NCBI GenBank assembly: GCA_964016885.1
Contig: OZ024753.1
Coordinates: forward strand, 19,592,001-19,656,000
Direction: 5' to 3'
Source of the DNA: Eledone cirrhosa
Lineage: Eukaryota
DNA: 64,000 bases
The notes below the pieces were generated by a model. The model saw nothing but the letters and a program-made list of their open reading frames with translations, was not told the DNA's origin and made no database searches. Shown piece after piece: positions 13,443-48,289 of the stretch. The position numbers were made by a program, and so were the translations under genes. Position 1 is the first letter of the stretch. Each line of letters begins with the position of its first letter.

Positions 13443-13490
<48 letters not shown>

Positions 13491-14047
13491 CAGGAAAGAA
13501 GGTTTACATGGTTTGCTATACAAAAAAGTTTTTAATCACATAGCTTACATTTGTTTCACTGAACTGGTATGTCTAGAGATCGCTATTCGCTTAATTTTGC
13601 GTTACTCGATCGCCAATACAGAATTATAACCAGTCAGATCTTCGGAGCATGCGAGAGTGAAGAAAATACACAGGCAAGAAAAGAAAAGAAAATACAGGCT
13701 ACTATATGAAGTAGTAATGGCATTCAATTAGAACAATAACAACAATTACAACAATGCTATCAATAAATTATTTAAGGAGACCCTGACATTACTTAGGTGG
13801 GGGGTATATAATGTATCTAATGTTACGGCGTGTAAAACTAGCTGTCATAAGGCACAATGAAGCGTTGGCATGTACAAAGTATCGTAGTGTATATCAATTT
13901 TAAATTATAAAGATAAGCTAGTTTTTACAGTCTTTCTCTTCATCTTCAACAGTATACATGAGTGGGACCACTGTCAAAGCTAAATAGTTGTTGAGTTAAT
14001 ACAGAGGTTAACGAATTAATATACGTATATATTTACGCACACACACA

Positions 14048-14110
<63 letters not shown>

Positions 14111-14343
14111 ACACACATATATATATATATATACACATATATACACATGCATGTGTACATAGACACATACATACACATCAATATACACTCGTACAAAAAT
14201 ATACATACATGCAAAGAGATAAGCGTGCTAATTGTAATTATGACAAAAAGAAGGTAAAGTAACATTGTAGTAGTGAAAGGAGAAAAACTAGGATTTAGGA
14301 TCAAATGATGGCAGCAGCTGAGAAGGAGTAAGATTGTTGGTAG

Positions 14344-16631: not shown

Positions 16632-16959
16632 ATCGAACCAACATAACATAGCTTTAAATTAGGATACCAACTACCCACAGAAATATATTGATTAAGTATA
16701 CTATATACTTCACAAGTCTATACCACACAATTGTCTGTAAGTACCTCATCTACCAACAATCTTACTCCTTCTCAGCTGCTGCCATCATTTGATCCTAAAT
16801 CCTAGTTTTTCTCATTTCACTACTACAATGTTACTTTACCTTCTTTTTGCCATAATTACAATTAGCACGCTTATCTCTTTGCATGTATGTATATTTTTGT
16901 ACGAGTGTATATTGATGTGTATGTATGTGTCTATGTACACGTGCATGTGTATATATGTG

Positions 16960-17072
<113 letters not shown>

Positions 17073-17454
17073 GTAAATATATGCGTATATTAATTCGTTA
17101 ACCTCTGTATTAACTCAACAACTATTTAGCTTTGACAGTGGTCCCACTCATTTATACTGTTGAAGATGAAGAGAAAGACTGTAAAAACTAGCTTATCTTT
17201 ATAATTTAAAATTGATATACACTACGATACTTTGTACATGCCAACGCTTCATTTTGCCTTATGACAGCTAGTTTTACACGCCGTAACATTAGATACATTA
17301 TATACCCCCCACCTAAGTAATGTCAGGGTCTCCTTAAATAATTTATTGATAGCATTGTTGTAATTGTTGTTATTGTTCTGATTGAATGCCATTACTACTT
17401 CATATAGTAGCCTGTATTTTCTTTTCTTTTCTTGCCTGTGTATTTTCTTCATTC

Positions 17455-17573
17455 TCTCATGCTCCGAAGATCTGACTGGTTATAATTCTGTATTGGCGAT
17501 CGAGTAACGCAAAATTAAGCGAATACCGATCTCTAGACATACCAGTTCAGTGAAACAAATGTAAGCTATGAGA
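17455..17573 (+). ncRNA. Variant hammerhead (core CCGAAGA, branched stem II) in the Naiad pLTR; inverted copy 13536-13654
   Basis: tctcat-gct CCGAAGA t-ctgactggt...accagttcag-t GAAA caaatg TA agc-t-atgaga. Confidence 0.6.
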
Positions 17574-17791
17574 TTAAAAACTTTTTTGTATAGCAAACCA
17601 TGTAAACCTTCTTTCCTGATTTATTATTACTCCAAGTGTTTACAACATAGGAATTACGGCATACCCGCAGCATCACTATGAAAACGCCTTGTTGAGTCAA
17701 ACCAAGCCAAGCGTTAATATCATCCATTACCTGGAATACCATAACTGGACTTCACCTAAGTGGACTGCATTTAACTATTATTTGTTAATCC

Positions 17792-17999: not shown

Positions 18000-18447
18000 T
18001 ACACATATGCATACAGGTACACATACATATATGCACGCATCAGTTTAGCCGACGTTTATTTTAACGCCTGCTTTGTTCGTTTGTTTGTCAACAAACCGAA
18101 CAGCCTGAATTTATGCCATACGGTGTGAAGGCAACCACGTCACCTTTTTGCTCAACACTGACACAGGAACGATGTACTAGTTTCAAGCTTGTTAGCTATC
18201 ATCAGCACCGTTTACCCATCTGCCAGATAGTTGAACTTTCGAATGTATATACTTTCCTTATGAAAATTAACGGCTGAGCAGCCTAATTTGCATATTGAGT
18301 GAGTTAAATCGGTCAGGCATACCGAAAACGATAAGTTGAACAAAAATGAAAACGAAATTTCATTTCTCACTCTTAGTATGGCACTTACTTAAATGTAAGT
18401 ATGTATGTATACGTACATACATATATGTATACAGACGTACAGTAGCA

Positions 18448-18521
<74 letters not shown>

Positions 18522-18739
18522 TACACATATGCATACAGGTACACATACATATATGCACGCATCAGTTTAGCCGACGTTTATTATAACGCCTGCTTTGTTC
18601 GTTTGTTTGTCAACACCGTATGGCATAAATTCAGGCTGTTCGATTTGTTGACAAACAAACGAACAAAGCAGGCGTTATAATAAACGTCGGCTAAACTGAT
18701 GCGTGCATATATGTATGTGCACCTGTATGCATATGTGTA

Positions 18740-18780
<41 letters not shown>

Positions 18781-18893
18781 GCTGCTGTACGTCTGTATAC
18801 ATATATGTATGTACGTATACATACATACTTACATTTAAGTAAGTGCCATACTAAGAGTGAGAAATGAAATTTCGTTTTCATTTTTTTTCAACT
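17889..18893 (-). mobile_element. Non-coding hammerhead-bearing ~500-bp unit in partial tandem with an inverted segment (retrozyme/pLTR-like)
   Basis: AAATGTAAGTATG recurs at 17889 and 18391, and 18613-18893 is the inverted copy. Hammerhead at 18170-18210 on the - strand. Confidence 0.75.
18170..18210 (-). ncRNA. Minimal type-I hammerhead ribozyme
   Basis: Identical to the 38103-38143 motif, on the - strand. Confidence 0.9.
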
Positions 18894-18906
18894 TATATAT
18901 ATATAC

Positions 18907-21719: not shown

Positions 21720-22132
21720 CGAGGGCTGGCTGAAGGTTCATAGGCTGACCAAAAACAATTAATGCTAGAGCTGTGAAATCTTGAATGCATTAATATCAAC
21801 ACTTCTTATTAGGAACTGCATTACTTTTTCCTAGGGAATATGTTGAAAATATACATCATTTGGTCTTTCCATGAGAGTATCTTAGTCACCCACGTACATG
21901 GATTGATTTACAGTCTGTCTCTATGGTGATTGTTCGTAAGAAGGTACAAGTTCAAATCCTGCCGAGGTTAGCTTTGCCTTTCATCCTTACGGGGTCGATA
22001 AAATAAAGTACCCGTAATGCACTGGGATAATTGCTGGCCTTGTGTCAACAATAGAACAATGATTAAAAAGAGTAGAAATTAATGCACGTAATTTTTCAGA
22101 GCTCAGCCTATGGACGTTTCATCCAACTCTCG
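21720..22132. mobile_element. Mariner-type MITE with TA target duplication, interrupted by a SINE fragment (21948-22060)
   Basis: TA|CGAGGGCTGGCTGAAGGTTCATAGGCTGA matches the reverse complement of the right end, TA|CGAGAGTTGGATGAAACGTCCATAGGCTGA. Confidence 0.75.
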
Positions 22133-22225
22133 TAATGTATATTGGTCAGGTGAACCAAGTGCTAATGACGTCAGTAGTGAGGTTAAATGCTGATGTATAT
22201 AATTGTTGCACACACATTACACTTT

Positions 22226-23331
22226 GAAGATAACACCGTTGTTATATAAAGACGGTAATATGGAAGATAACACCGTTGTTATATAAAGACGGTGACATGG
22301 AAGATAACACTATTCTTATATAAAGACGGTGACATGGAAGATAACACTATTCTTATATAAAGACGGTAACATGGAAGATAACACCGTTGTTATATAAAGA
22401 CGGTGACATGGAAGATAACACTATTCTTATATAGAGAGGGTAACATGGAAGATAACACCGTTGTTATATAAAGACGGTGACATGGAAGATAACACTATTC
22501 TTATATAAAGACGGTAATATGGAAGATAACACTATTCTTATATAAAGACGGTAACATGGAAGATAACACCGTTGTTATATAAAGACGGTGAGATGGAAGA
22601 TAACACCGTTGTTATATAAAGACGGTAAAATGGAAGATAACACCGTTGTTATATAAAGACGGTGACATGGAAGATAACACCGTGTTATATAAAGACGGTA
22701 ATATGGAAGATAACACCGTTCTTATATAAAGACGGTAACATGGAAGATAACACCGTTGTTATATAAAGACGGTGACATGGAAGATAACACCGTTGTTATA
22801 TAAAGACGGTGACATGGAAGATAACACCGTTCTTATATAAAGACGGTGACATGGAAGATAACACCGTTGTTATATAAAGACGGTGACATGGAAGATAACA
22901 CCGTTGCTATATAAAGACGGTAAAATGGAAGATAACACCATTGTTATATAAAGACGGTGACATGGAAGATAACACCGTTGTTATATAACGACGGTAATAT
23001 GGAAGATAACACCGTTGTTATATAAAGACGGTGACATGGAAGATAACACCGTTGTTATATAAAGACGGTAATATGGAAGATAACACCGTTCTTATATAAA
23101 GACGGTAACATGGAAGATAACACCGTTCTTATATAAAGACGGTAACATGGAAGATAACACCGTTGTTATATAAAGACGGTGACATGGAAGATAACACCGT
23201 TGTTATATAAAGACGGTAACATGGAAGATAACACCGTTCTTATATAAAGACGGTAACATGGAAGATAACACCGTTGTTATATAAAGACGGTGACATGGAA
23301 GATAACACCGTTGCTATATAAATACGGTGAC
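22226..23331. repeat. 37-bp minisatellite, ~30 copies
   Basis: Unit GGAAGATAACACCGTTGTTATATAAAGACGGTGACAT, head-to-tail. Confidence 0.95.
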
Positions 23332-24207
23332 AGTGATATTTATGATTCTTAAAACTCTATCTTATGTTAGCCATATCGAAGAATATGCATAGAAATATTA
23401 TATTAAATATAGCGTGTCGTGGCTGGACATTTATATGTTGTATATAATGTGTCAACAGTTGTTCACTATCTATGTATACTTCTACACCCTTTTCAAACAC
23501 CCACTTTATACTTGGATTTGGGGGCATCTGTGGTTTACATATATATAAGCACTTGTACGTACATATATGTATATACACACCTGTATGGATTTGTGTGTGT
23601 AGAGGTGTGTGTGCACCTGAGGGGGTAGGTGTGAGTGTATGTACAAGTCAACCAAAATAAGTCTTTTTATTTCTAAAATTTCTAAACTTTCTAAGTATTT
23701 GACTCTAACCATAATTTTCAGTATTACCACCACACATTAATTCCTTAATTTATATGTGTGGATGTGTGTGCGTGTCTGTCGGGATGGGTGTGAGTGTATG
23801 TGCAAGTCAACCAACATAAGCCTTGTTATATGTAAATTTTCTAGTATTCTATTCTAACCATAATTTTCAGTAGCACCACTCCACATAAATACCTCAATTT
23901 GAGAATGACCTGTAGTATCGAATTTCATACTATAAAACTCAATTGAATATATATCTGACCAGGAATACTTTTTGTGAAAATCAGTCATAAGGAACTATTG
24001 TCATCGTGCCTGACGGTTTGAACTTTACAACACCACCTGCCTCTTTGAGGTCAAATACCAACCCTACTAACATCTACAAACTGACCAATGAGAATTAAGA
24101 CTATTCCTGCTGACAACATTAAATTATTCCTAACAAGCTCATATGACCCAAGGCTCTGATACCATCAACACCATAAGCACAGAGCTGGCATATCTAAGAA
24201 CTGACTA

Positions 24208-24978: not shown

Positions 24979-25031
<53 letters not shown>

Positions 25032-25318
25032 AGAAAAAAAACACTCAGTGTTGCGACGAATGGAATTTATTGGACATATTACAATCGTTTCTCTGGCGAC
25101 CAGCTCGAGGCACGATCGATTTGATGACCGAAGCTGACTCACGATTAAATCGATCGTGCCTCGAGCTGGTCGCCAGAGAAACGATTGTAATATGTCCAAT
25201 AAATTCCATTCGTCGCAACACTGATTCTTTTTTTTTCTGTGATATCATACTCTGCTCTATGAAAGCATCGAGTGTTCATACGGCCTGCCTCATACGGAGG
25301 CTTTAAGCATCCAACAAC

Positions 25319-27872: not shown

Positions 27873-30473
27873 AAAGAACTATTGCTCCTACACTACAACA
27901 AAAATATACGAAATAAGTGAGGGTACCCTTCAGATTGTGATAGGAAATCTACAAGATAAGAAAACACCAGGAAGAGACATGATTGTCGGCTACTGGTACA
28001 ACATACTGATATTCTATCGGAGGTATCTTACTGACCTCTACCTACAAGTTCTTAAGGGAGATACGCTTATACCAGAATGGTTGATATTAGCACAAACATT
28101 ACTGTTCCCCAAGAACAAAGACAACCACTTGGCAAAAAACTACCATCCATTGCATGCCAGAACCTGATGTATAAGATGTATACAGCCTGCCTGAACCTAT
28201 TCCTCCAAGATCACTGTAAAAATAATAACATCATCACAGATGAACAAGCAGCTGGAAAGAAAGGGGTTTGGGGATGTGCTGAACAACTCCTAATCAACAA
28301 AACTGCGATGTCAGAGGTGCGACAACTTAGGAGGAATATGGCCACAGTCTGGCTGGACTACAGGAAAGCTTTCGATTCTGTTCCCCACTCTTGGATGATA
28401 GAGGCACTCCAACTTGCTAAAGTCCCAGACATTATTGTCAGAGCCATAAAGAGGCTGTCTCCTTCTTGGGCTATTATCCTAAGGTTAAAGACAGAGAGGG
28501 ACGACTCAATTTTCACTGATAAAATAAAATATTGCAGCGGTATATTTCACGGGGACAGTCTCTCTGTTATATTATTAATCTTGTCATTAAACCCCTTGTC
28601 CTTTCTGCTCAAGAAATGTGAGGTATACATCATTGACTCACAGGAGGACAGAAATACGAACCTAACCCATAACTTCTTAGTGGACGATCTGAAACTCTAT
28701 GCCAAAAACATGGATGGGATGAAGAAAGATCTTGACCTGGTTACAACGTTCTCAAAGGACATAGGAATGGAGTTTGGTCAAGATAAATGCTCATACATGA
28801 CTGTAAAGCGGGGAAAAACAACAACCCAGTCCAGCAACATTGTCATCAATGGTCTAACTGTTTCACCGATATCTGATGAGGACTGCTACAAATACATGGG
28901 GATAGATGAGAACATATCCTATAATGGTATCTGTAATAAAGAACGCGTAACCAGGGAATACTACACCAGATTAAGAAAGATCTGGTCATCGGAACTCTCT
29001 GCGCAAAACAAAACAGTGGCTCACAATGTGTTTGCTGTCCCTGTCCTAACACTAACTTTGGAATACTCAATTAGACGATAGTGGAAATCCGAGCCGTTGA
29101 TGTTGGAACTCGACAAATACTGAACAACACTGGAAACTTCCACATCAATAGTGACATAGACCGCCTTTACTTGAAACGTAAGCAGGGAGGCAGAGGCCTA
29201 ACATCAGTCCAGACAGGATTTGAATGTCGCATCATATCTCTCCGACAACATATAGGAACCTCGAAGCGTAGGAGCCCGTTTCTCGGGTAAGTCTATCTGC
29301 ATGAAACAGATGAGATCATGAGAGTTGTGAAGGAACTCCTCGAAATAATCCTGTGTGATAATCCTGTGTGATAATCAAAAGCTCACACCCAGGGAAGTCG
29401 CTCAGCAGTATCGCAGTGAATCCATGGATGAAAAACTGCATACTTATCAGCAAAAAGTCAAGCATGGACGTGTTGCCAGGAAGCCCCAGTGTGAGGGTAA
29501 TATAGATAAGGAAAGTAGTCTATCTTGGACCAACAACCGCTATATTGGCTCCCACTTTGAAGGATACGCTTTTGTAATCCAAGAACAGGAGATTAACACG
29601 AAATCCCTGAATTACAAAATATATATTGATGCAGGCAAAACACCTAGATGTGATAACAAGTGCAGCCTCTGCAGAACTAACATACAGGATATCACCCATG
29701 TCTACAGCAGCTGTCCAAAGATATCATCGCGGTACTATCTACTTATGAGGCATCATGTAGTGGCGAAAACACTGTACAATGCAGTTTGTAAAAAAAGATA
29801 GCCCCGATAATAAACACATTAAAAGCTACAGCAATGTGGTAGACATCCATGTACATAATATGAAAGAGTACTGGTGGAATGTTCCAGTAAAAACACCAGT
29901 AAAATGCAGGCATAACAGACCAGATATTATGATATAGGACGAGGATAAGAAAGCATGCACAGTAGTGGAAATTAGCTGCCCAGCAGATGCCAATATAAAA
30001 TCAAAGATTAGCGAAAAGGAGTATATTTATGCAGAACTTTTGAGAAATCAGCAGATACTCCACCCTGATTACACCTTCAGATTTATACCTGTGATTATTG
30101 GCTCATGTTAGTAACTGCCTCAATACAAATCTTGAGAAGCTAGTCTTCACAGGAACGGTAAGAACACAACTAGTTAGGAAATTACAATTACAATCCATTA
30201 ATAGAACAGTAAAATTATGTAAAACATTCCAAAATCTTTGCATCTAATAACTGCATATACACATGTACAGATGCAATGTATATACACATGCACATATTCA
30301 ACTAAAACATCCCCATCCACACATACAATAACATCCATATTTGCACATGCATGCATACATACATATCTACCTAGTTGATGTGTAAATTCCAATGAGAGAA
30401 TCTCGTGTCTATGTTAGAAACCGACTCTCTCTCTATTGGTAAAACATTTGTGAAATTATAAAACCAGAAGAAC
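27873..30473 (+). mobile_element. R4/Dong-like RLE non-LTR retrotransposon, 5'-truncated, frameshifted
   Basis: RT motifs KTPGRD, WLDYRKAFDSVPH, GIFHGDSLS, FLVDDLKLY, YKYMG and GGRGL; CCHC knuckle CSLC..H..SSC; RH, HNRPDI and VVEISCP. Bounded by (TACA)n. Confidence 0.9.
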
Positions 30474-31657: not shown

Positions 31658-31857
<200 letters not shown>

Positions 31858-31874
31858 ATAAATATATTTATAAC

Positions 31875-31939
<65 letters not shown>

Positions 31940-32457
31940 TGTTATATTTGGGGAGGGTCATATTTGCGTAATATTGCCAGAATTAATAACAGAACACACT
32001 CACTGTTTGGTTGGTTTTCGCTTCTCGCTGTCTTTTATATATATATATCTGCGATCTAACTTACTCGGTCCTCAATGTTGCCATTGACTGACCGGCGGTC
32101 AAAAATAATACAGATACAATATAGACAAACACATATATATATAGTTTACATAAATCTTTCGTTGCACATCTGCAACATCGTCAGTGGTGTTATATTCATT
32201 GTTCCTCCTGTTGTGTTGTATGTCTACGCCATTTTTTTTTGTTCAGTCTGTCTATATATTTATTTATTTATTTGCTTGTTTGTTTATCTTATTTTATTTT
32301 GTCTTCTTTGCGCATGCGTTTGCGTGTGTGTATAGTGTTATGTGTGATGTGTGACTAGTGTGTATAGTGTTGTGTCTGCTGGGTGACTAGTGTGTGTTTA
32401 TGTGCTTGTGTATGTATTTATTTATCTTATTTTATTTAATTTAATTTACTTATTTAT

Positions 32458-34785
32458 TTATACTTCTCTTAGGTCAGTGTTGTTTGTTTGGGTGTTGTTG
32501 TTGTTCCACTCATTCTTTCTGTTTAGCTTTGGTCTTCTAATTTCTATTTCACTGGCCTCTCTGATTTGCCTATCTGCTGGGTCATTCCTATGTTTAGATA
32601 TTATTCTAATTTCTATGTTGTCTATGTTACCGTCATGATGTTGTCTAGCATGTTCGTATAGTACTGACCCGTTTTTTCGTCCTTTTAGTTCCCCCCAGTG
32701 TTGGTCTATCCTTTCACCTATGCTACGAGCTGTCTCACCTATGTATGTTGTTGTCGTGTTTCTGCAAGTACCCTCTGTACATCTTATGCTATAGACTACG
32801 TTTCTAGTTTTACAGTTTATCCGGGGGTTCACCTTACATATGATACATTTCCTATTGGTACAGTGGGTTTTCTTAAAAGGGTAGGTTTTGCTGATCAGGG
32901 ATTTTATGGTGGTTCCTGGCTTTTCTACCACCTTTATTTTTAAGTGGGTCTTTCTCAGGGCCTTTCTACACTGGTTAGCCAATTTCCCTCCAGGGGTGGC
33001 GTCCACAAACATGACACTCTGATATCTCTGGTTGTCGTACCATGATGTGGCCTTCCCTATCTTATGTCTAGCCCTATCTAAGCTATTCCATGATTTGCTC
33101 CTGTATAGTGGGCAAATTCCTTTCATGTCCAGTTCTATGAGGGTCTTATACTTTTCCATGGCTCCTTCGTATACTCTGACTCTGTCTCTTTGGTTGTAGC
33201 CAGAGAACTGCATGCGGTTGATGAAGTGTTGGATGTGTCCTTCCATTTCTGTTGGGTCGCACATGCTGGACACATTCTTCATCACTCGTACCAAATCTGC
33301 GATCAGAATATTAAACTTAGCACTACTGGACATTGCTGAGTTTTTGAGTATCAGGTATTTGGAGGCCATGGGTTTAGCATAGTGTGAGTGGAGAATTTGG
33401 GCTCTCTCGTCTATAGTGTTAATCCAGAGTTCTGTGTCTAATACAGGTAGTCTATTGTTAGGGTGTTTGGAAGGGAAGTCTATAGTTACAGTTATACTCT
33501 GGTGTATGGAATTAGCTATCTGCTGGATGCTTTCCATCGTGCTACGTTCTAAATCAAACTTGTTAGTGCTCTCTAGTGGGGGTGTTCTTATAACTATATT
33601 GATATCGTCTACATAACGAGAGTACATGATGAGGTCTATGGAGCTTTCATTAAGGAGATCTTTAAGTCTCCTTTCCCACCATACCATGAAAAGGTTGGCA
33701 ACATCGCCAGCTATGCTGACGCCGATGGCTGCTCCCTCATTTTGGGTGTAGATTTTCTCATTGAACTTAAATATGTGGCCCTTTAGGGTAGTTTTGATAC
33801 TAGCCCCTATTGCATGTGCGACCATTTTTCTTACCTGATCAGTGTTTTGGGGGGTCCGTATAGCTTTGGTCCACCCAATCCACCTTCCTATGGGAGTCTT
33901 TTTAGCCATTGAGGTTATGGTGGGGGGTCTACCTCTTATAGGTCTACTAGGGCAGAAACATCTAAGGTCATGGCTGTCTAGGTAGTCAGTGTCGTAGGTA
34001 AGTCTAAGTAGGAGGCCCAGTTCGTCTGTGTCGACGTCGCAGAACTCCACCTCACTCTCAATGATCATCTCCACACATCTTTTCACAGCAAAATCAATGT
34101 TAATGGATGGGTACAGTGACACCACATCCATGCTGCCTATTATGCAGTTGGATAGGCTCCTGTTTTTGTTGCACTCACTGATTCTGCTGAGGAGGTCCTC
34201 TGTACTTTCACATACATCTGGGGACATCTTGATTATGGGGCGTATAACCATTGAGAGGAAGTAGGAGATCCTGTAGTTGCTAGCTATATTAGCTCCGCAT
34301 ACAGGTCTTGTTGGTGGTCCTATTGTCGGGTCGTCGACTGTCTTGTGGTCTTTGCGGAGCCCATACAAGGGTGGTATGCCATTGTTAGACGCCTGGAAGT
34401 TGTTGGCAGTGCGTCTGCTTGGCTTTAGGATGTCAGTCCACATCATCATGTGAGCGTTGAGGATTTTTTCTCTCCCATCGTGTGTTAGTTGTGCAACTTC
34501 GCTCGTGTTGGTGATGTGGGGTTGCATTGCCTCGATGTAGTTCGGCATGCTATCTATTGACATCCTACCAGACTTATCTGTGGGTAGACACACTACCTCA
34601 CCATCCCTTGTGCGCTGCTTGAGGCTAACCAAGCCTTCTACAGGTTTTATCCCAAGTTGTTGGGCCTCTGGTCTGCTCTGTCTCATAGTGTACCTGTCTA
34701 CTACTTGTCTAATCTTATTTCTAGCTATGGTGAACTGTGCCTCCGTCTCGTCATCTATTTGTTGTGGTATGCAAACTCTTTTATT
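32458..34785 (-). CDS. Mirror copy of the same 5'-truncated PLE RT-EN ORF
   Basis: Translation matches the + strand copy beyond the junction. Confidence 0.93.
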   Translation of the reverse strand, partial: NKRVCIPQQIDDETEAQFTIARNKIRQVVDRYTMRQSRPEAQQLGIKPVEGLVSLKQRTRDGEVVCLPTDKSGRMSIDSMPNYIEAMQPHITNTSEVAQLTHDGREKILNAHMMMWTDILKPSRRTANNFQASNNGIPPLYGLRKDHKTVDDPTIGPPTRPVCGANIASNYRISYFLSMVIRPIIKMSPDVCESTEDLLSRISECNKNRSLSNCIIGSMDVVSLYPSINIDFAVKRCVEMIIESEVEFCDVDTDELGLLLRLTYDTDYLDSHDLRCFCPSRPIRGRPPTITSMAKKTPIGRWIGWTKAIRTPQNTDQVRKMVAHAIGASIKTTLKGHIFKFNEKIYTQNEGAAIGVSIAGDVANLFMVWWERRLKDLLNESSIDLIMYSRYVDDINIVIRTPPLESTNKFDLERSTMESIQQIANSIHQSITVTIDFPSKHPNNRLPVLDTELWINTIDERAQILHSHYAKPMASKYLILKNSAMSSSAKFNILIADLVRVMKNVSSMCDPTEMEGHIQHFINRMQFSGYNQRDRVRVYEGAMEKYKTLIELDMKGICPLYRSKSWNSLDRARHKIGKATSWYDNQRYQSVMFVDATPGGKLANQCRKALRKTHLKIKVVEKPGTTIKSLISKTYPFKKTHCTNRKCIICKVNPRINCKTRNVVYSIRCTEGTCRNTTTTYIGETARSIGERIDQHWGELKGRKNGSVLYEHARQHHDGNIDNIEIRIISKHRNDPADRQIREASEIEIRRPKLNRKNEWNNNNTQTNNTDLREV

Positions 34786-34807
34786 TGTTGTGGTATGCAA
34801 ACTCTTT

Positions 34808-37135
34808 AATAAAAGAGTTTGCATACCACAACAAATAGATGACGAGACGGAGGCACAGTTCACCATAGCTAGAAATAAGATTAGACAAGTAGTAGACAGG
34901 TACACTATGAGACAGAGCAGACCAGAGGCCCAACAACTTGGGATAAAACCTGTAGAAGGCTTGGTTAGCCTCAAGCAGCGCACAAGGGATGGTGAGGTAG
35001 TGTGTCTACCCACAGATAAGTCTGGTAGGATGTCAATAGATAGCATGCCGAACTACATCGAGGCAATGCAACCCCACATCACCAACACGAGCGAAGTTGC
35101 ACAACTAACACACGATGGGAGAGAAAAAATCCTCAACGCTCACATGATGATGTGGACTGACATCCTAAAGCCAAGCAGACGCACTGCCAACAACTTCCAG
35201 GCGTCTAACAATGGCATACCACCCTTGTATGGGCTCCGCAAAGACCACAAGACAGTCGACGACCCGACAATAGGACCACCAACAAGACCTGTATGCGGAG
35301 CTAATATAGCTAGCAACTACAGGATCTCCTACTTCCTCTCAATGGTTATACGCCCCATAATCAAGATGTCCCCAGATGTATGTGAAAGTACAGAGGACCT
35401 CCTCAGCAGAATCAGTGAGTGCAACAAAAACAGGAGCCTATCCAACTGCATAATAGGCAGCATGGATGTGGTGTCACTGTACCCATCCATTAACATTGAT
35501 TTTGCTGTGAAAAGATGTGTGGAGATGATCATTGAGAGTGAGGTGGAGTTCTGCGACGTCGACACAGACGAACTGGGCCTCCTACTTAGACTTACCTACG
35601 ACACTGACTACCTAGACAGCCATGACCTTAGATGTTTCTGCCCTAGTAGACCTATAAGAGGTAGACCCCCCACCATAACCTCAATGGCTAAAAAGACTCC
35701 CATAGGAAGGTGGATTGGGTGGACCAAAGCTATACGGACCCCCCAAAACACTGATCAGGTAAGAAAAATGGTCGCACATGCAATAGGGGCTAGTATCAAA
35801 ACTACCCTAAAGGGCCACATATTTAAGTTCAATGAGAAAATCTACACCCAAAATGAGGGAGCAGCCATCGGCGTCAGCATAGCTGGCGATGTTGCCAACC
35901 TTTTCATGGTATGGTGGGAAAGGAGACTTAAAGATCTCCTTAATGAAAGCTCCATAGACCTCATCATGTACTCTCGTTATGTAGACGATATCAATATAGT
36001 TATAAGAACACCCCCACTAGAGAGCACTAACAAGTTTGATTTAGAACGTAGCACGATGGAAAGCATCCAGCAGATAGCTAATTCCATACACCAGAGTATA
36101 ACTGTAACTATAGACTTCCCTTCCAAACACCCTAACAATAGACTACCTGTATTAGACACAGAACTCTGGATTAACACTATAGACGAGAGAGCCCAAATTC
36201 TCCACTCACACTATGCTAAACCCATGGCCTCCAAATACCTGATACTCAAAAACTCAGCAATGTCCAGTAGTGCTAAGTTTAATATTCTGATCGCAGATTT
36301 GGTACGAGTGATGAAGAATGTGTCCAGCATGTGCGACCCAACAGAAATGGAAGGACACATCCAACACTTCATCAACCGCATGCAGTTCTCTGGCTACAAC
36401 CAAAGAGACAGAGTCAGAGTATACGAAGGAGCCATGGAAAAGTATAAGACCCTCATAGAACTGGACATGAAAGGAATTTGCCCACTATACAGGAGCAAAT
36501 CATGGAATAGCTTAGATAGGGCTAGACATAAGATAGGGAAGGCCACATCATGGTACGACAACCAGAGATATCAGAGTGTCATGTTTGTGGACGCCACCCC
36601 TGGAGGGAAATTGGCTAACCAGTGTAGAAAGGCCCTGAGAAAGACCCACTTAAAAATAAAGGTGGTAGAAAAGCCAGGAACCACCATAAAATCCCTGATC
36701 AGCAAAACCTACCCTTTTAAGAAAACCCACTGTACCAATAGGAAATGTATCATATGTAAGGTGAACCCCCGGATAAACTGTAAAACTAGAAACGTAGTCT
36801 ATAGCATAAGATGTACAGAGGGTACTTGCAGAAACACGACAACAACATACATAGGTGAGACAGCTCGTAGCATAGGTGAAAGGATAGACCAACACTGGGG
36901 GGAACTAAAAGGACGAAAAAACGGGTCAGTACTATACGAACATGCTAGACAACATCATGACGGTAACATAGACAACATAGAAATTAGAATAATATCTAAA
37001 CATAGGAATGACCCAGCAGATAGGCAAATCAGAGAGGCCAGTGAAATAGAAATTAGAAGACCAAAGCTAAACAGAAAGAATGAGTGGAACAACAACAACA
37101 CCCAAACAAACAACACTGACCTAAGAGAAGTATAA
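34808..37135 (+). CDS. Penelope-like RT + GIY-YIG endonuclease, 5'-truncated, uninterrupted frame (first Met 34907)
   Basis: Motifs PTDKSG, LYGLRKDHK, RPVC, SMDVVSLYPSI, GAAIG, YSRYVDD, PVLD, a Cys linker CTNRKCIIC and VVY...YIGET. Confidence 0.93.
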   Translation, partial: NKRVCIPQQIDDETEAQFTIARNKIRQVVDRYTMRQSRPEAQQLGIKPVEGLVSLKQRTRDGEVVCLPTDKSGRMSIDSMPNYIEAMQPHITNTSEVAQLTHDGREKILNAHMMMWTDILKPSRRTANNFQASNNGIPPLYGLRKDHKTVDDPTIGPPTRPVCGANIASNYRISYFLSMVIRPIIKMSPDVCESTEDLLSRISECNKNRSLSNCIIGSMDVVSLYPSINIDFAVKRCVEMIIESEVEFCDVDTDELGLLLRLTYDTDYLDSHDLRCFCPSRPIRGRPPTITSMAKKTPIGRWIGWTKAIRTPQNTDQVRKMVAHAIGASIKTTLKGHIFKFNEKIYTQNEGAAIGVSIAGDVANLFMVWWERRLKDLLNESSIDLIMYSRYVDDINIVIRTPPLESTNKFDLERSTMESIQQIANSIHQSITVTIDFPSKHPNNRLPVLDTELWINTIDERAQILHSHYAKPMASKYLILKNSAMSSSAKFNILIADLVRVMKNVSSMCDPTEMEGHIQHFINRMQFSGYNQRDRVRVYEGAMEKYKTLIELDMKGICPLYRSKSWNSLDRARHKIGKATSWYDNQRYQSVMFVDATPGGKLANQCRKALRKTHLKIKVVEKPGTTIKSLISKTYPFKKTHCTNRKCIICKVNPRINCKTRNVVYSIRCTEGTCRNTTTTYIGETARSIGERIDQHWGELKGRKNGSVLYEHARQHHDGNIDNIEIRIISKHRNDPADRQIREASEIEIRRPKLNRKNEWNNNNTQTNNTDLREV

Positions 37136-37404
37136 ATAAATAAGTAAATTAAATTAAATAAAATAAGATAAATAAATACATACACAAGCACATAAACACA
37201 CACTAGTCACCCAGCAGACACAACACTATACACACTAGTCACACATCACACATAACACTATACACACACGCAAACGCATGCGCAAAGAAGACAAAATAAA
37301 ATAAGATAAACAAACAAGCAAATAAATAAATAAATATATAGACAGACTGAACAAAAAAAAATGGCGTAGACATACAACACAACAGGAGGAACAATGAATA
37401 TAAC

Positions 37405-37445
37405 ACCACTGACGATGTTGCAGATGTGCAACGAAAGATTTATGT
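37405..37445 (+). ncRNA. Hammerhead-like motif in the PLE 3' pLTR (mirror 32148-32188 on -)
   Basis: cca CTGACGA t-gttgca-gatg-tgcaac GAAA gatt TA tg; stem I is short. Confidence 0.7.
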
Positions 37446-37759
37446 AAACTATATATATATGTGTTTGTCTATATTGTATCTGTATTATTTTTGACCGCCG
37501 GTCAGTCAATGGCAACATTGAGGACCGAGTAAGTTAGATCGCAGATATATATATATAAAAGACAGCGAGAAGCGAAAACCAACCAAACAGTGAGTGTGTT
37601 CTGTTATTAATTCTGGCAATATTACGCAAATATGACCCTCCCCAAATATAACAATATCTGTTTCGACACACGATTTCATATAAAAAACCTCGCAAAACTA
37701 ATTCATCGCCGCTATATATATATAAATATATATATATATATAGTTATAAATATATTTAT

Positions 37760-37841
<82 letters not shown>

Positions 37842-37909
37842 ATATATATATATATATATCGATATATATATATATATATATCTATATATATATATATATA
37901 TTTATATAT

Positions 37910-38002
<93 letters not shown>

Positions 38003-38004
38003 TA

Positions 38005-38440
38005 CTTGACTCACTCGATATGCAAATTAGACTGCTCAGCCGTTAATTTTCATAAGAAAAGTATATACTTTCGAACGTTCAACTATCTGGCAGAAGGGTA
38101 TACGGTGCTGATGATAGCTAACAAGCTTGAAACTAGTACATCGTTCCTGTGTCAGTGTTGAACAAAAAGGTGACGTGGTTGCCTTAACACCGTACGGCAT
38201 AAAAATTCAGGCTGTTCAGTTTGTTTACAAACGAACGAAGCGGCGTTATAATATGCGTCCGCTAAACTGATGCGTGCATATATGTATGTGTACCTGTATG
38301 TATATATATATATATATATGCATGCTACTGTACGTCTGTATACATATATGTATGTACGTATACACACATACTTACATTTAAGTAAGTGCCGTACTAAGAG
38401 TGAGAAATGAAATTTCGTTTTCATTTTATTTCAACTTATA
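38005..38440 (+). mobile_element. Second, slightly diverged copy of the ~500-bp hammerhead unit (different permutation) in (TA)n
   Basis: Reverse complement of about 18305-17890, continuing into 18390-18335. Hammerhead at 38103-38143. Confidence 0.8.
38103..38143 (+). ncRNA. Minimal type-I hammerhead ribozyme
   Basis: cggtg CTGATGA tagct-aaca-agctt GAAA ctag TA catcg; stem I, stem II and a palindromic stem III are all present. Confidence 0.9.
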
Positions 38441-38445
38441 TATAT

Positions 38446-38503
<58 letters not shown>

Positions 38504-38774
38504 GAAAAGTGTAATTTTCTACACAAAACGAAGGTTATAGAGCAAATTGAGGTTGGTAATGGATACATGGAATATATAAGAGGCAGAATACTTTTTTGTG
38601 AAAAAACATATAATTTTATAAGGTAAGGAAATAATAAAGGGTATAAAAAATGACCGGTTTCGATGGGTCTGCAAAAGCCATCTTTTCAAATGTTGATTAA
38701 CATTAAGAAAAATTAATAATACGAAGAGTTAAAATTTTAACTCTTCGTATTATTAATTTTTCATAATATTAATC

Positions 38775-38822
38775 AACATTTGAAAAGATGGCTTTTGCAG
38801 ACCCATCGAAACCGGTCATTTT
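38775..38822 (+). ncRNA. Variant hammerhead, U3-A8 core (mirror about 38647-38694 on -)
   Basis: aacat TTGAAAA gatgg-cttttgcagac-ccatc GAAA ccgg TC atttt. Confidence 0.55.
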
Positions 38823-38967
38823 TTATACCCTTTATTATTTCCTTACCTTATAAAATTATATGTTTTTTCACAAAAAAGTAGTCTGTCTCTTATATATTCC
38901 ATGTGCCATTACCAACCTCAATTTTCTCTATATATATTTATATATATATATATAAATATATTTATAA

Positions 38968-39142
<175 letters not shown>

Positions 39143-39350
39143 TAAACAAATAATGAATAAACAATGAAACAGTTCCTTATATTAAACAAAAAAAGTTCAT
39201 TATTTAACGATCGTTTCTAGGATATATATGTGTTAGAATTGGCATGCATATTCAACAGATCTATGTACAAAATTATACAAAATTATACAAACTATCAAGA
39301 TTAAATATACATACCAACACATATATACGCCGTCTTCAGAAATAATCATG

Positions 39351-39498
39351 ATTATTTCTGAAGACGGCGTATATATGTGTTGGTATGTATATTTAATCTT
39401 GATAGTTTGTATAATTTTGTATAATTTTGTACATAGATCTGTTGAATATGCATGCCAATTCTAACACATATATATCCTAGAAACGATCGTTAAATAAT
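39351..39498 (+). ncRNA. Hammerhead with ~115-nt extended stem II (mirror copy 39199-39346 on -)
   Basis: attattt CTGAAGA cggcg-tatatatgtgttgg...ctaacacatatata-tccta GAAA cgatcg TT aaataat. Confidence 0.7.
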
Positions 39499-39694
39499 GA
39501 ACTTTTTTTGTTTAATATAAGGAACTGTTTCATTGTTTATTCATTATTTGTTTAATATTTTATCTTGACTCTGTATACCGTTTATCTTTCACCGAAAGTG
39601 ATTTTTCATTACATCTCTTCTTTCCATGATATCCGGAATACATTGAGTTCTTCATACGGATTGGACACTACCGTAAACTCTTGGTAGATTTATC

Positions 39695-41920: not shown

Positions 41921-42917
41921 TCATCCTACACTTGCGACCACTGAGGATCAGTTAAGTCCAAAATAAATGCAAGTCGAAATCGAAAGAATGAACGCAATGT
42001 TGACTTTGGCGAGATTTCAACACAGAGAGCAGAGAGTTCGAAAGAATGTCACAAAGTGTTCAATCCGACGTTCTAATAACTCCGCCATTTTACCGCCTAA
42101 ATATATAAACACCAACCAGAGAATGATTAAATAATAAAGACGCAAATCAAATCAGAAATAATCCGAGTGTTTTGTAATAGCAGATATGACTCTATCAAAA
42201 CACACATGTATGTGTGTATGTTAATGTGCGGGTATGTAATATATAGATATGTGTATGTTAATGTGTGGGTATGTTAATATATATATATGTGCATGTGTGT
42301 ATATAAATATATATATGTACATATGTTAATGTGTATGTGTATAGGTTAATGTTATGTGTATGATGATGTGTATGTTAATTTTTCTGTATATCTTAATGTG
42401 TATATGTGTAAGTTAATATGTATATGTGTATATTTAATATAGATGCGTTTATGTTGGTGCGTATGTGTATATCTTAATATATATATGTGTGTATATTAAT
42501 GTGTATATTAATATATTTGCGTGTATGTATATGTGTATGTTAATATATATATATATGGGTATATTAATGTGTAACCGTGATGTTCATATGTATATGTGTA
42601 TGTTAATATGTATGTGTCTATGTTAATATACTTGTGTGTGTGTGTGTTTCTTAATATATATGAGTGTATGTAAACGTTATATGTTTATATATACGTGTGT
42701 ATGTCAATTTCAATATGTATGTATGTTAATATATTTGTGTGTAGGTTAATGTGTATGTTAATATATATGTGTGTATTATAATATATATGTGTATGTGTAT
42801 TTGCAGAAGGTTTTTTAAAATATTTGGTATTAATAATTTTATAGCATTTATTCACAAAGTAAACACATGATGTTTAAGAAGCAAGTGTGAAAATGACTTC
42901 AATTTACATAAAAGCTC

Positions 42918-45900
42918 ACTACTATCATGTCAAACTGACACAACTCTATACTATCATGTCAAACTAATACAACTCTATACTATCATGTCAAACTAACACA
43001 ACTCTATACTATCATGTCAAACGAACACAACTCGATAGTATCGTGTCAAACTAACACAATTCTATAATATCATGCCAAACTAACAGAACTCTATAGTATC
43101 ATGTCAAACTAACACAACTCTATACTATCATGTCAAATTAACACAACTCTATAGTATCATGTCAAATTAACACGACTTTATAGTATCATGTCAAACTAAC
43201 ACAACTTTATACTATCTTGCCAGACTAACAGAACTCTATAGTATCATGTCAAATTAACACAGCACTATATTAGCATGTCAAACTAACAGAACTCTGCACT
43301 CACATGTCAAAGTAACATGGCACTATATTATCATGTGACACTAACAGAAATCTACAGTATCATGACAAACTAACACAGCACTATATTATCATGTCAAACA
43401 AACAGAACTCTATAGTATCATATCAAACGAACACAGCACTATACTATCATGTCAAACTAACACAACTCTATACTATCATGTCAAACTAACAAAATTACTA
43501 ACATAACTCTATAGTATCATGTCAAACTAACACAAATCTATACTATCATGTCAAAATAATACAACTCTATACTATCATGTCCAACTAATAGAGCTTTCTA
43601 CTATCACGTCAAACCCAACACAACTCTATTCTATCATGTCAAACTAACACAATTCTCTACTATCATGTCAAACTAACACAACTCTATTCTATCATGGCAA
43701 ACTAACACAATTCTCTACTATCATGTGAAACTAACACAACTCTATACTATCATATCAAACTAGCACAGCTCTATACTATCATGTCAAACTAAGAGCGCTC
43801 TCTACTATCATGTAAAACTAACAAAACTCTATGCTATTATGTCAAACTAACAGAACTCTATAGTATCATGTCAAACTAACACAACTCTATACTTTCGTAT
43901 CAAACTAACACAACTCTAAACTATCATGTCAAAGTAACACAACTCTATACTATCATGTCAAACTAAACAGTTCTATACTATCATGTCAAACTAACACACA
44001 TCTATACTATCATGTCAAACTAACACAGGTCTATACTATCATATCAAACTAACACAACTCTATAGTATCATGTCAAACTAACACTACTCTATACTATCAT
44101 GTCAAACTAACACACCTCTATACTATCATGTGAAACTAACAGAGCTCTCCACTATCATGTCAAACTAACACAGGTCTATACTATCATATCAAACTAACAC
44201 TACTCTATACCATCATGTCAAACTAACACAACTCTATACTATCATGTGAAACTAACACAACTCTCTACTATCGTGTCAAACTAACACAGCTCTCTAGTAT
44301 CATGTCAAACTAACAAATCTCTATGATAACATGTCTAACTAACACTACTCTATTCTATCCTGTCAAACTAACACAGGTCTATACTCTAATGTCAAACTAA
44401 CTAAACTCTATACCATCATGTCAAACTAACACAGCTCCATACTATCATGTCAAACTAACACAGTTCTCTACTATTAAGTCAAACTAAGAAATCTCTGATA
44501 ACATGTCTAACTAACACAACTCTATGCTATTATGTCAAACTAAGACAGGTCTATAATAGAATGTCAAACTAACTAAACTCTATGCTATGATGTCAAACTA
44601 ACACAACTCTATACTATCATGTCAAACTAACACAACTCCCTACTATCATGTCGAACTAACTAAATGCTATGCGATCATGTCAAACTAACATAACTCTATA
44701 CTATTATGTCAAACTAACACAACTGTATATTATCATGTCAAACTAACACAACTCTATACTATCATGTCAAACTAACACAACTCCCTACTATCATGTCGAA
44801 CTAACTAGATTCTATGCGATCATGTCAAACTAACATAACTCTATTCTATTATGTCAAACTAACACAACTGTATATTATCATGTCAAACTAACACAACTCT
44901 ATACTATCATGTCAAACTAACACAACTCTATACTATCATGTCAAACTAACACAACTCTATACTATCATGTCAAACTGACACAGGTCTATACTATCATGTG
45001 AAACTAACAGAGCTCTCTACTACCATGTCAAACTAACACAACTCTATACTATCATGTCAAACTAACACAACTCTATACTATCTTGTCAAACGAACACAAC
45101 TCTATACCATCATGTCAAACTAACAAAACTCTATAGTATCATGTCATCTAGAGAATTCTATACTATCATGTCAAACTAACACAACTTTATACTATCCTGT
45201 CAAACTAACACGACTCTATAATATCATGTCAACTTAACAGAACTCTATACTATTATGTCAAACTAACAAACCTGTCTATTATCATGTCAAACTAACACAA
45301 CTCTATACTATCATGTCAAACTAACACAACTCTCTACTAACGTGTCAAACTAACAGATATATATACTATCATGTCAAACTAACACAACACTATACTGTCA
45401 TGCCAAACTAACACAACTCTATAGCATCATGTCAACTAGAGAACTCTATACTATCATGTCAAACTAACACTGGTCTATACCAGCATGTCAAACTAATAGA
45501 GCTCTCTACTATCACATCAAAGTAACACAACTCTATATTATCATGTCAAACTAACATAACTCTATAGTATCATGTTAACTAGAGAACTCTATACTATCAC
45601 GTCAAACTAACACAGGTCTATACTATCATCTCAAACTAACACATCTCTATGATAACATGTCTAACTAACACAACTCTATGCTATCATGTCAGGCTAAGAC
45701 AGCTCTATACTATCATGTCAAACTAACACAACTCTATACTATCATGTCAAACTAAAACAGGTCTATACTATCAGGTGAAACTAATAGAGTTCTCTACTAC
45801 CATGTCAAATAACACAACTCTATACTATCATATCAAACTAACACAACTCTATACTATCATGTCAAACTAACACTACTCTATACTATCATGTCAAAATAAC

Positions 45901-46575
45901 ACAACTGTATACTATCATGTGAAACTAACAGAGCTCTCCCCTATCATGTCAAACTAACACAACTCTATACTATCATGTCAAACTAACATAGCTCTCTACT
46001 ATCATGTCAAACTAACACAACTCTATACTATCATGTCAAACTAACACAACTCTATACTATCATGTCAAACTAACACAACTATCTACTATCGTGTCAAACT
46101 AACAGATCTCTATACTATCATGTCAAACTAACCCAACTCTATACTGTCTTGTCAAACTAACACAACTCTATACCATCATGTCAAACTAACACAACTCTAT
46201 AGTATCATGTCATCTAGAGAACTCTATACTATCATGTCAAACTAACACAACTTTATACTATCCTGTCAAACTAACACAACTCTATATTATCATGTCAAAC
46301 TAACACAACTCTATACTATCATGTCAAACTAACATAGCTCTCTACTATCATGTCAAACTAACACAACTCTATAGTATCATGTCATCTAGAGAACTCTATA
46401 CTATCATGTCAATCTAACAGAACTACTAACAGAACTCTATAGTTTCATGTCACACTAACATAGCTCTCTACTAACATGTCAATGTAACAGAACTCTAAAC
46501 TACCATACCAAACTAAGAGAACTCTATACTACCATATCAAACTAAGAGAACTCTATACTATCATGTCAAACTAAG
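42918..46575. repeat. 29-bp minisatellite, ~125 copies
   Basis: Unit ACTATCATGTCAAACTAACACAACTCTAT. Confidence 0.95.
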
Positions 46576-48289
46576 CAAATTACGTACTACTACACACTAT
46601 CTTGTTTATGACGTACAGTATACATGCATACAGTAATTTATTCCTATACGATTGCGTGAGCATCCATATAAATACATGTCTCTTATTTATTTCCAAATGT
46701 TTGCTAGAAATGCAAAACTATTTTAATAACTTTGTCATAATAAAAGGAAAGAAAATATGTTTCTGTCTGCAGAAATTTCTCCAAATACGACCAGCAATAT
46801 TGAATATTGCATGTTACTTTATTTATTTAATGATTTATTTGTAGATTTATTTCTACTTTATTTTTGTTTAATTTTCGAATTCGTCATTAAAGATTATATT
46901 TCCTTTTCTTTATTTTAAAAAACATCATGTGATTTTACATTAATTCGTGTTCGTCATCGACCAGACGCCATCTTCGTTAAAGACTTTAATGTTACTTGTT
47001 CTAATTAACACTCTCAGATTCTAGCGATAAATATTTAAGTCATCTGCAAACCGATCGCGGATAATGTTAAAAGAAAATACACTCCTCTACCATTTTTTGT
47101 GCCGAGGAGATATATGTGGCTCTGAATCCAGTCAGAATTAATTTTAAGTTCTTTATGACGTGATAGTGTGAGGATTGAAATTATCGTCACGTTTTTTTCC
47201 TGTGCTTCCATCTTGATCAAAGCATACAGATAGAACTGTAAAAGCATAAGTGGCGATTTGGCAAGAGTTGTTAGAACGTCAAAAAGACTGATTTGCCTTA
47301 TTCGTTCCAGCTCTCTTCTCTTTGAGTTCAAACCCCGTGGTCAACTTTGCCTTTCATCAATTCTAGGTCGATAAAAATAGTACTAGTCTAGTTTTGAAAT
47401 CGAGTTTTCCTTTATATATCTTTCTCACTTCCTCTCTCTCCCTTTCTAGCCTTCTCGTCGCACCGACGATTCCTTCTGGAGTTACGGTTTCCAAAAGAAA
47501 GAACAAACCATACATGATTTAAAACATTTGTGTTGCTAATGTTAATTATGCAGATTACAATAGATTATTCCAGAAGTTTAGGCAGGGAAGATTTACAAGT
47601 GGGATTGAAGTTTACTTTGCAATCATATAGTCACAGGTTCTATTTCTCTGCATGTTACCTTCAAGATTGAAATTATGTGCAACCAGGGTGAATTTACTAC
47701 ACATAATCTTGGAATTTTCGAAATATCAGATTGAGGTGCACTGAATCTGCCCGAGAATTACATTAAATTTACACGTGACTGTGGAATAAACACAGTTATA
47801 CATGTTAAATTAACGGGTGGTATATCGTTTGAAAATCGGAATGGTTATCGTTAAGACTAGCAGATTAACGATTATATAAATACAGCCTATTGTTTGGGAC
47901 ATTCGTGAGCTCAATGCCTCACTGTGGATGCGACTCATCGCCTGATAGAGCATTTGCTACATCTGTTGTACGTAAGATACTCTAAAACCGCGGTTATCTG
48001 TATAATAAAATCAAACATTTGATTGTTTGTCTTGAAACGCTGTTGCTATATCTTAACGGACTGTCGAGAAATAGGGGTTAAAGACTGGTATCTATCGTAA
48101 AACATTCCCCTAAAAATGTTTTCAATCTATTACCTCAAGTCAAGAAAAGTATTTTTTATTAAAATCTAATAATTAATGAATTATCAATCCTTCATTAACT
48201 TTAAAGTGTAGAGCACTTACGTGATAAAACGGGTCAGTTGTTGAAGAACGTTAGAAATACTCAGTAGTGGATTGCATGTGGTGGTTTGA

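What the first reader, a model, noticed from the sequence alone, without database searches (positions are those of the whole stretch)
31936..37657. 5.7-kb palindrome of two apparently identical 2850-bp PLE arms with a template-switch scar
Seen: no differences were spotted between the arms and the translations match. The apex has a 26-bp tandem duplication (34756-34781 and 34782-34807), leaving a 22-nt spacer. Both strands keep an open frame through the apex, so antisense sequence supplies an in-frame start to a complete RT-EN core. Inference: a very recent insertion by fold-back second-strand synthesis. It could form a cruciform, a 2.8-kb dsRNA silencing trigger, or a still-functional enzyme source from Met 34907.
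Basis: partly seen in the sequence, partly recalled or inferred. Interest (0 to 1): 0.75.

Follow-up and report, generated by a model that had tools for sequence, protein, structure and literature searches.

The report
Head-to-head Penelope retroelement insertion
The 5.7-kb mirror-image stretch is real and consists of two cut-short copies of a very abundant Penelope-like jumping gene set head to head, a layout already described for this class; it was likely built from one RNA molecule, and it is probably not a working gene.

Summary
Observation confirmed: arms 31936-34785 and 34808-37657 match at all 2850 bases, with a 26-bp duplication at the apex. This is the published Penelope-like (PLE) layout: inverted 5'-truncated copy, one-sided tail, (TA)n target. 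The genome holds 2043 tailless and 1138 tailed ends of this family. Of 60 sampled insertions, 46 are head-to-head. Either arm can be the longer (20 versus 11 of 37), so fold-back alone cannot explain the family; both cut ends probably prime on one RNA. Symmetric apices are nevertheless in excess (5 of 37, 0.76 expected), their arms are more alike, and this apex sits on a native micro-hairpin, so snap-back probably closed this copy. The open frame through the apex is compatible with chance, and the arms lack residues 1-435 of a 1210-residue protein. No read evidence across the apex was obtained. The scan has noted this layout before (184 findings, at least 28 genomes). One extra: the reverse transcriptase carries a telomerase-sized insertion in its fingers together with a C-terminal nuclease, a combination I did not find described.

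The parts
31936..34785 (-). Tailless arm: 5'-truncated PLE copy, unit positions 4129 down to 1280, ending at the family's fixed tailless end
   Evidence: end motif found 2043 times in the genome
34756..34807 (.). 26-bp tandem duplication; the second copy is a templated re-copy of unit 1309-1284, entered through TATT (34782-34785) and left through CTTT (34804-34807); net filler 18 nt (34786-34803)
   Evidence: junction pattern occurs once in the genome
34804..34815 (+). Native micro-hairpin CTTT-AATA-AAAG of the element at which the forward arm begins; likely snap-back point
   Evidence: element sequence; fold
34804..37657 (+). Tailed arm: 5'-truncated PLE copy, unit positions 1276-4129
37658..37712 (+). 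55-nt tail, present on this side only; it is the start of the next tandem unit (codons 10-27 of the ORF)
   Evidence: tail-plus-TA end found 1138 times
34808..37135 (+). Truncated ORF, residues 436-1210 of the native protein (DKG-like motif, RT, thumb, zinc linker, GIY-YIG); first native Met at 34907 is residue 469
32458..34785 (-). Mirror copy of the truncated ORF
35465..35851 (+). RT motif A to motif B' interval of 128 residues, about 70 longer than in canonical PLEs (insertion in the fingers)
   Evidence: reference spacings counted from Fig. S1 of PMC8557442
36731..37085 (+). CX4CxxCX7C linker and GIY-YIG endonuclease with CCHH motif
   Evidence: I-TevI match Z 10.3, rmsd 2.1, 90 aligned
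37409..37436 (+). Hammerhead-like core (CTGACGA, stem II, GAAA) in the pseudo-LTR; stems I and III poorly formed; mirror at 32157-32184
   Evidence: no Rfam match
37632..37714 (+). Native ORF start (ATG at 37632) at the end of the pseudo-LTR, pointing out into the flank
31660..31935 (.). Left (TA)n target flank; an interrupted 34-mer at 31851-31884 is mirrored in the right flank
37713..38005 (.). Right (TA)n target flank; mirrored 34-mer at 37733-37766; about 30 nt ([TA]6 AA [TA]8) may be a direct target duplication
   Evidence: the duplication reading is inference

Best explanation
This is a single insertion of an abundant Penelope-like retroelement in a (TA)n array, made of two 5'-truncated copies set head to head with a tail on one side, likely built when both cut DNA ends primed copying of one RNA and one copy then likely snapped back on itself. 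Shown: the layout, the two fixed outer ends (unit positions 4129 and 4184), the truncation, the micro-hairpin and the 26-nt re-copy at the apex, and one template lineage for both arms. Inferred: (1) the GIY-YIG nuclease cuts both strands of the TA array; (2) one end primes at the tail end and the other 55 nt further in, as the anole PLE protein does in vitro (PMC11167929); (3) the tailed cDNA stops at unit 1276, its 3' AAAG pairs with its own CTTT, 26 nt are copied, the end slips back through AATA and copies on; (4) this new strand is complementary to the cDNA made at the other end, so the two anneal and close the gap. Most insertions of the family instead join the two cDNA ends by short microhomology and have unequal arms. 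The product is a dead-on-arrival copy, and the open frame through the apex is a by-product.
For: Fixed ends: 2043 and 1138 exact end motifs. 46 of 60 sampled tailed ends have an inverted partner at the junction, 39 of them starting at the tailless end. In 20 of 37 simple insertions the tailless arm is longer, so neither arm contains the other and both ends must have been primed (also L029 and L030). One template: both arms here carry an allele found at 8 of 3348 sites in the genome; both arms of L030 and of L029 share alleles found only 14 and 40 times (no denominator was run for these two). For snap-back closure: symmetric apices 5 of 37 against 0.76 by permutation, p 0.0007; arm-to-arm substitutions 1 of 6770 in young symmetric loci against 12 of 15648 and 23 of 12831 in young asymmetric ones; native hairpin at the apex. 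Templated fillers also occur at L019, L021 and L034. In vitro, a PLE protein cuts and extends both strands and starts at two sites that bound the tail.
Against: No read or contig spanning the apex was seen (none of the listed pieces spans it, and these runs may be other individuals), so the locus rests on the assembly. The low arm divergence of symmetric loci rests mostly on two loci (this one and L023) and could also come from younger age, arm-to-arm conversion or assembly polishing. A 4-bp hairpin is common by chance, and the other symmetric apices show no uniform native hairpin. Two cDNAs running off the same broken RNA end would give the same sequence. Steps 1-4 were not tested for this family.
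Confidence: 0.55

Rival explanations
1. Both cut ends copy the same RNA all the way to the same broken 5' end, and the two equal cDNAs are joined end to end through the 4-bp micro-palindrome with a templated filler; no snap-back occurs.
For: It explains both fixed ends, the shared rare allele and the excess of symmetric apices with one process. Junctions across the family show 1-6 nt microhomology or templated fillers.
Against: Two separate reverse-transcription passes should leave as many arm differences as in asymmetric loci. Symmetric loci have fewer: 1 of 6770 against 35 of 28479.
Confidence: 0.27
2. Pure one-end fold-back: one cDNA self-primes and copies itself back, with no second priming event; unequal arms elsewhere come from later deletions across the centre.
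For: Self-priming was proposed for such junctions in PMC3846280. Central deletion could shorten either arm. The arms here are identical.
Against: It gives no reason for the copy to stop 55 nt short at one fixed base in 2043 ends. Several insertions have a tailed part of under about 70 element bases beside a much longer tailless arm (L056, L067, L071, L093).
Confidence: 0.08
3. Assembly or library artefact (fold-back reads).
For: No read support was obtained. The flanks are also mirrored, the only such case among 34 loci.
Against: A folded read would also mirror the tail and both flanks fully. Instead the left arm ends at the family's canonical tailless base, and the flanks diverge after about 100 nt. 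Mirrored TA arrays occur in 2 of 90 arrays examined. Six other symmetric insertions with unrelated flanks exist.
Confidence: 0.06
4. The structure is kept for a function: an enzyme source from Met 34907 or from the antisense Met at 34547, or a dedicated hairpin-RNA silencing locus.
For: Both frames are open, the truncated protein folds with confidence (mean pLDDT 89.8), and read-through would give a 2.8-kb hairpin.
Against: The open frame is within chance. The N-terminal 435 residues are missing. The native start and pseudo-LTRs point outwards. Thousands of other inverted copies could give dsRNA equally well. With zero divergence there has been no time to show selection.
Confidence: 0.04

Closest known systems
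Canonical C-terminal EN+ Penelope-like insertions with an adjacent inverted 5'-truncated copy and one-sided tail (PMC8557442 Fig. 2 legend; Pen2a_Av in PMC3846280)
   Same: Partial tandems, inverted copy at the 5' side, tail at one end only, pseudo-LTR that includes the first codons of the ORF, palindrome at the inverted junction, AT-rich target, asparagine-rich insert in the ORF (residues 244-409, 50% Asn).
   Different: The tail is 55 nt rather than 30-40. The arms here are 2.85 kb and almost equal. The Asn-rich insert lies before the RT rather than between RT and thumb or EN.
PAc (Poseidon of Anolis carolinensis) in vitro mechanism, PMC11167929
   Same: Both strands cut and extended; two RT start sites bound the tail; AT-rich targets.
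   Different: That work did not reconstitute the inverted product. This family is of another lineage, and its chemistry was not tested.
Nematis clade PLEs
   Same: C-terminal GIY-YIG with CCHH and a short linker; the spacing CX4CxxCX7C equals that of Nematis_Cr and Nematis_C4 in Fig. S2.
   Different: Motif A to B' spacing is 128 against 60 in the C. remanei row of Fig. S1. No phylogeny with named references was built.
Naiad/Chlamys PLEs and telomerase RTs (insertion in fingers domain)
   Same: Long insertion at the same place, between RT3(A) and RT4(B'); spacing 128 against about 81 (Naiad-Amil), 119 (Chlamys-1_tObl), 115 (human TERT) and 149 (Tetrahymena TERT), counted by me from Fig. S1. 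TERTs are the top fold matches.
   Different: The nuclease is C-terminal, not N-terminal. Homology of the insertion to the TERT IFD was not shown.
LINE-1 twin priming (passages of 10.1101/2024.12.14.628481; otherwise recalled)
   Same: Both target ends prime on the RNA, and the pieces are joined inverted. Inverted duplication of flank by self-annealing is also reported for L1.
   Different: In L1 the two pieces cover different parts of the RNA (recalled). Here they overlap and both start at fixed sites.

Membership tests
EN+ Penelope-like element (C-terminal EN) | Single ORF with TERT-related RT | tested here: met
   1210-aa ORF in natural tandem units; RVT_1 E 1.6e-4, below Pfam's cut-off; top fold matches are TERTs, Z 15.4, rmsd 4.6, 293 aligned
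EN+ Penelope-like element (C-terminal EN) | C-terminal GIY-YIG endonuclease with CCHH motif | tested here: met
   NVVY..C-TEGT-C..YIGET..H..H read from the sequence; I-TevI match over model residues 660-759
EN+ Penelope-like element (C-terminal EN) | Partial tandems forming pseudo-LTRs; 5' truncation; inverted adjacent copy | tested here: met
   4126-4129-bp tandem units; 46 of 60 head-to-head
EN+ Penelope-like element (C-terminal EN) | Tail at one end only (30-40 bp as published) | tested here: met
   One-sided tail present, but 55 nt long
EN+ Penelope-like element (C-terminal EN) | Hammerhead ribozyme motif in the pseudo-LTR | tested here: inconclusive
   Core and stem II at 37409-37436; stems I and III poor, z about 0; no Rfam hit at E 5
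Nematis clade | Short CX2-5CxxC linker before the GIY-YIG domain | tested here: met
   CX4CxxCX7C, compared by eye with Fig. S2
Nematis clade | No insertion in fingers (A to B' about 60 aa) | tested here: not met
   128 here; 124-133 in 74 of 74 aligned sequences
Nematis clade | Monophyly with named Nematis RTs | not tested
   No named reference sequences were available as stored proteins
Neptune clade | Long zinc-finger linker (about 20-30 aa between CxxC and the next Cys) | tested here: not met
   7 residues here against the Neptune rows of Fig. S2
Naiad/Chlamys | N-terminal endonuclease | tested here: not met
   EN lies at residues 1077-1200 of 1210
Hydra clade | No CCHH; CxCX5C linker; DKT motif | tested here: not met
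   CCHH present, CX4CxxC linker, DKSG
TERT-type insertion in fingers domain | Same position and homologous fold | tested here: inconclusive
   Position and length match; fold searches report only whole ranges; the segment folded alone gave pLDDT 35

The most novel reading that the evidence does not exclude
The element belongs to a large unnamed PLE lineage that joins a C-terminal, Nematis-type nuclease to a reverse transcriptase with a telomerase-sized insertion in fingers, which canonical PLEs are said to lack. Its insertions record a two-route mechanism: both cut ends prime on one RNA, and closure is either by microhomology (unequal arms) or by snap-back (perfect palindromes, about one in seven), here at the tip of a pre-existing cruciform-prone TA palindrome.
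Probability: 0.3. Interest if true: 0.55.

Novelty: new member of a known kind. Interest (0 to 1): 0.3.

Why it matters
How PLEs make their inverted copies is stated as open in PMC8557442 and PMC11167929. A young family with over a thousand insertions gives countable predictions: two fixed ends, either arm longer, a symmetric subclass with nearly identical arms. These can be checked with the existing in vitro system. If the fingers insertion is a true IFD, it bears on the PLE-telomerase link and on clade definitions. The locus itself is one ordinary, probably dead insertion.

Tried and rejected
Reads: no RNA holder was listed for the apex kilobase. In one search, three contig sets matched the arms and continued from 34804 into the element's native upstream sequence; no listed piece spans the apex (418 pieces were not shown), and the raw-read run laid 0 reads, so this is no test. 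A closer look at reads over the apex was not obtained. Rfam found nothing in 37000-37800. The fingers segment folded alone was unusable. Pfam gave only weak RVT_1 and GIY-YIG hits for six homologues. A sequence look-up of earlier scan notes returned nothing. Five paper searches found no description of a C-terminal-EN PLE with an IFD-sized insertion and no named clade for this family; the library lacks most subscription papers (Arkhipova 2006 was not seen) and Repbase/Dfam were not searchable, so this is weak. Rejected: a DNA transposon with terminal inverted repeats (the arms are coding, truncated at the centre, and vary freely in length); the inverted flanks as a signature of symmetric insertions (absent in the other five symmetric loci that were testable); the first 19 loci as a fair sample (they were chosen for long arms, so frequencies come only from the 60-end sample); the six other carriers of the rare allele as a clear donor (four are 87-94% diverged copies, and two are the arms of L096).

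Full report
Observation. The two arms match at all 2850 positions, the spacer is 22 nt, and the 26-mer is duplicated as stated. Both strands carry an 864-codon open frame through the apex. The apex junction pattern occurs once in the 3.0-Gb assembly. The best named protein relative is an Octopus vulgaris protein at 68% identity, so the host is probably an octopus-type animal (inference).

The family. A search with the right arm gave 49 listed matches at 99-100% identity from 40 scored of 2442 candidates. Tandem arrays define a unit of 4126-4129 bp; I used one natural unit as a ruler. The native ORF starts inside the pseudo-LTR (ATG at window 37632), is 1210 aa long and has an Asn-rich insert at 244-409. 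The window's arms start at unit 1276 and 1280, which is residue 436; Met 34907 is residue 469. The 55 nt after 37657 are element sequence, the tail. Exact end motifs number 2043 for the tailless end and 1138 for the tailed end, each followed by TA repeats. An internal 26-mer occurs 3348 times.

Architecture across the family. First set: 18 loci plus the window, chosen for long arms and so biased. All 19 are head-to-head; 17 have the inverted arm starting at unit 4129, and the other two (L016/17 and L018) share one junction and may be one insertion. Junctions show 1-6 nt microhomology in 13, fillers of 1-2 nt in 2, and longer fillers in 4; L034's is 190 nt, mostly copied from its own flank. Second set: 60 of the first 62 tailed ends listed on contig 1 (two skipped as already held). 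Of these, 37 are simple head-to-head, 2 are head-to-head with tandems, 7 have another inverted partner, 13 have none at the junction by my rule and 1 ran off the stretch. Among the 37, the tailless arm is longer in 20, the tailed arm in 11, and 6 are within 20 nt, 5 of them within 10 nt. Permuting the end points gives 0.76 expected, p 0.0007. End points are BLAST coordinates.

Mechanism. When the tailless arm reaches further 5' and the tailed arm further 3', neither contains the other, so one cDNA folding back cannot make both. Priming from both cut ends at two fixed sites does, and matches the in vitro behaviour of the anole PLE protein, which cuts and extends both strands and starts at two sites that bound the tail (PMC11167929, parts 1-2 of 4 read). 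Both arms come from one template lineage: the allele at unit 3085 is in both arms here and at 8 of 3348 sites genome-wide. L030 and L029, where the tailless arm is the longer, also share rare alleles between arms, found 14 and 40 times. This shows the same donor at least; the same molecule is inferred.

The symmetric subclass needs something more. Young symmetric loci differ between arms at 1 of 6770 positions, against 12 of 15648 and 23 of 12831 in young asymmetric loci (33 loci with overlap of 150 nt or more). The forward arm here begins at a native CTTT-AATA-AAAG hairpin, and the filler is an exact re-copy of unit 1305-1284 bounded by 4-nt microhomologies. Snap-back of the tailed cDNA, followed by annealing to the cDNA primed at the other end, explains the ends, the apex and the identity together. 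Run-off of two cDNAs from one broken RNA gives the same sequence and is the main rival. Younger age, conversion or polishing could also lower arm divergence.

Flanks. An interrupted 34-mer occurs only twice in the genome, once on each side here and inverted. Of 34 testable loci this is the only one with an informative inverted flank match (85 nt); 8 have direct matches (printed before the script failed). Mirrored interrupted TA arrays occur in 2 of 90 arrays, so a pre-existing palindromic target with a duplication of about 30 bp is the simplest reading (inference). Inverted flank duplication during insertion is reported for L1 (10.1101/2024.12.14.628481, passages) and is not excluded.

Coding claim. 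Over 9900 apex and frame combinations, 34% have an upstream in-frame ATG and 6% an open run of 81 codons or more. The GxKF-like motif (LPPKF, residue 215) is lost. The native start points outward at both ends. Nothing supports an enzyme source, and no RNA data could be tested.

Protein. The model is confident (mean pLDDT 89.8); TERTs are the top matches and the C-terminal domain matches I-TevI. The linker spacing equals that of Nematis. The motif A to B' interval is 128 aa: 124-133 in all 74 aligned sequences. Among 150 cluster representatives, 50 had both motifs by my pattern; 49 measured 117-148 and one 539, and 19 of the 50 had a downstream linker and YxG motif. Canonical PLEs measure 57-60 in Fig. 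S1 of PMC8557442 by my count, and that paper says canonical PLEs lack the IFD. The homologues were selected by similarity to this protein, so the uniform length shows a lineage, not its position. Homology to the TERT IFD is untested.

Literature seen. PMC8557442: passages, sections 11 and 12, supplement parts 54 and 57 and term hits. PMC11167929: parts 1-2 of 4; its supplements were not read. PMC3846280: passages and Discussion. 10.64898/2026.07.22.740005 and 10.1101/2024.12.14.628481: passages only; their supplements are closed and the first may list relevant PLE families. PMC10294476: one passage, not useful.

Earlier scan notes. 184 findings in at least 28 genomes share these words, several reaching the two-end priming reading. 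Notes from this genome report ADAR-type marks suggesting both arms come from one RNA; I did not check those loci.

Verdict. A real, young, dead-on-arrival PLE insertion of a known layout at the long end of a symmetric subclass. Interest is modest and comes from the junction statistics and the fingers insertion, not from the locus.

Noticed in passing
window 13485-17624: A second PLE with inverted arms (93% alike) around a 648-codon ORF at 14685-16629 whose motifs resemble the Hydra clade rows of Fig. S7.
   Followed up: partly
window 9351-9772, 11716-11832, 18331-18896, 25025-25245, 38437-39034, about 39150-39546: Six short palindromes, most beside or within (TA)n, several with one-sided extensions; probably head-to-head stubs of other PLE or small repeat families. 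The one near 39150-39546 looks close to perfect.
   Followed up: no
window 6039, 24213, 38108 (+); 41914, 18205 (-): Further hammerhead-like cores (CTGANGA...GAAA) belonging to other repeats.
   Followed up: no
L034 4539-4728: A 190-nt junction filler, mostly copied from the insertion's own left flank and followed by a re-copy of the arm end; resembles templated end-joining.
   Followed up: partly
unit positions about 3804-3829 and 3986-4000: 5' truncation points of both arms cluster here in the 60-end sample; these could be transcription starts or RNA break points.
   Followed up: no
L018 and L016/L017; L037; L096: Inverted arms that themselves run through whole tandem units, implying multimeric RNA templates.
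   Followed up: no
window 28056-29801: A decayed LINE-type reverse transcriptase in pieces, RVT_1 E 1.4e-17.
   Followed up: no
window 22110-23444, 42795-46580, 59287-62551: Minisatellite arrays with periods of 37, 29 and about 31 bp.
   Followed up: no
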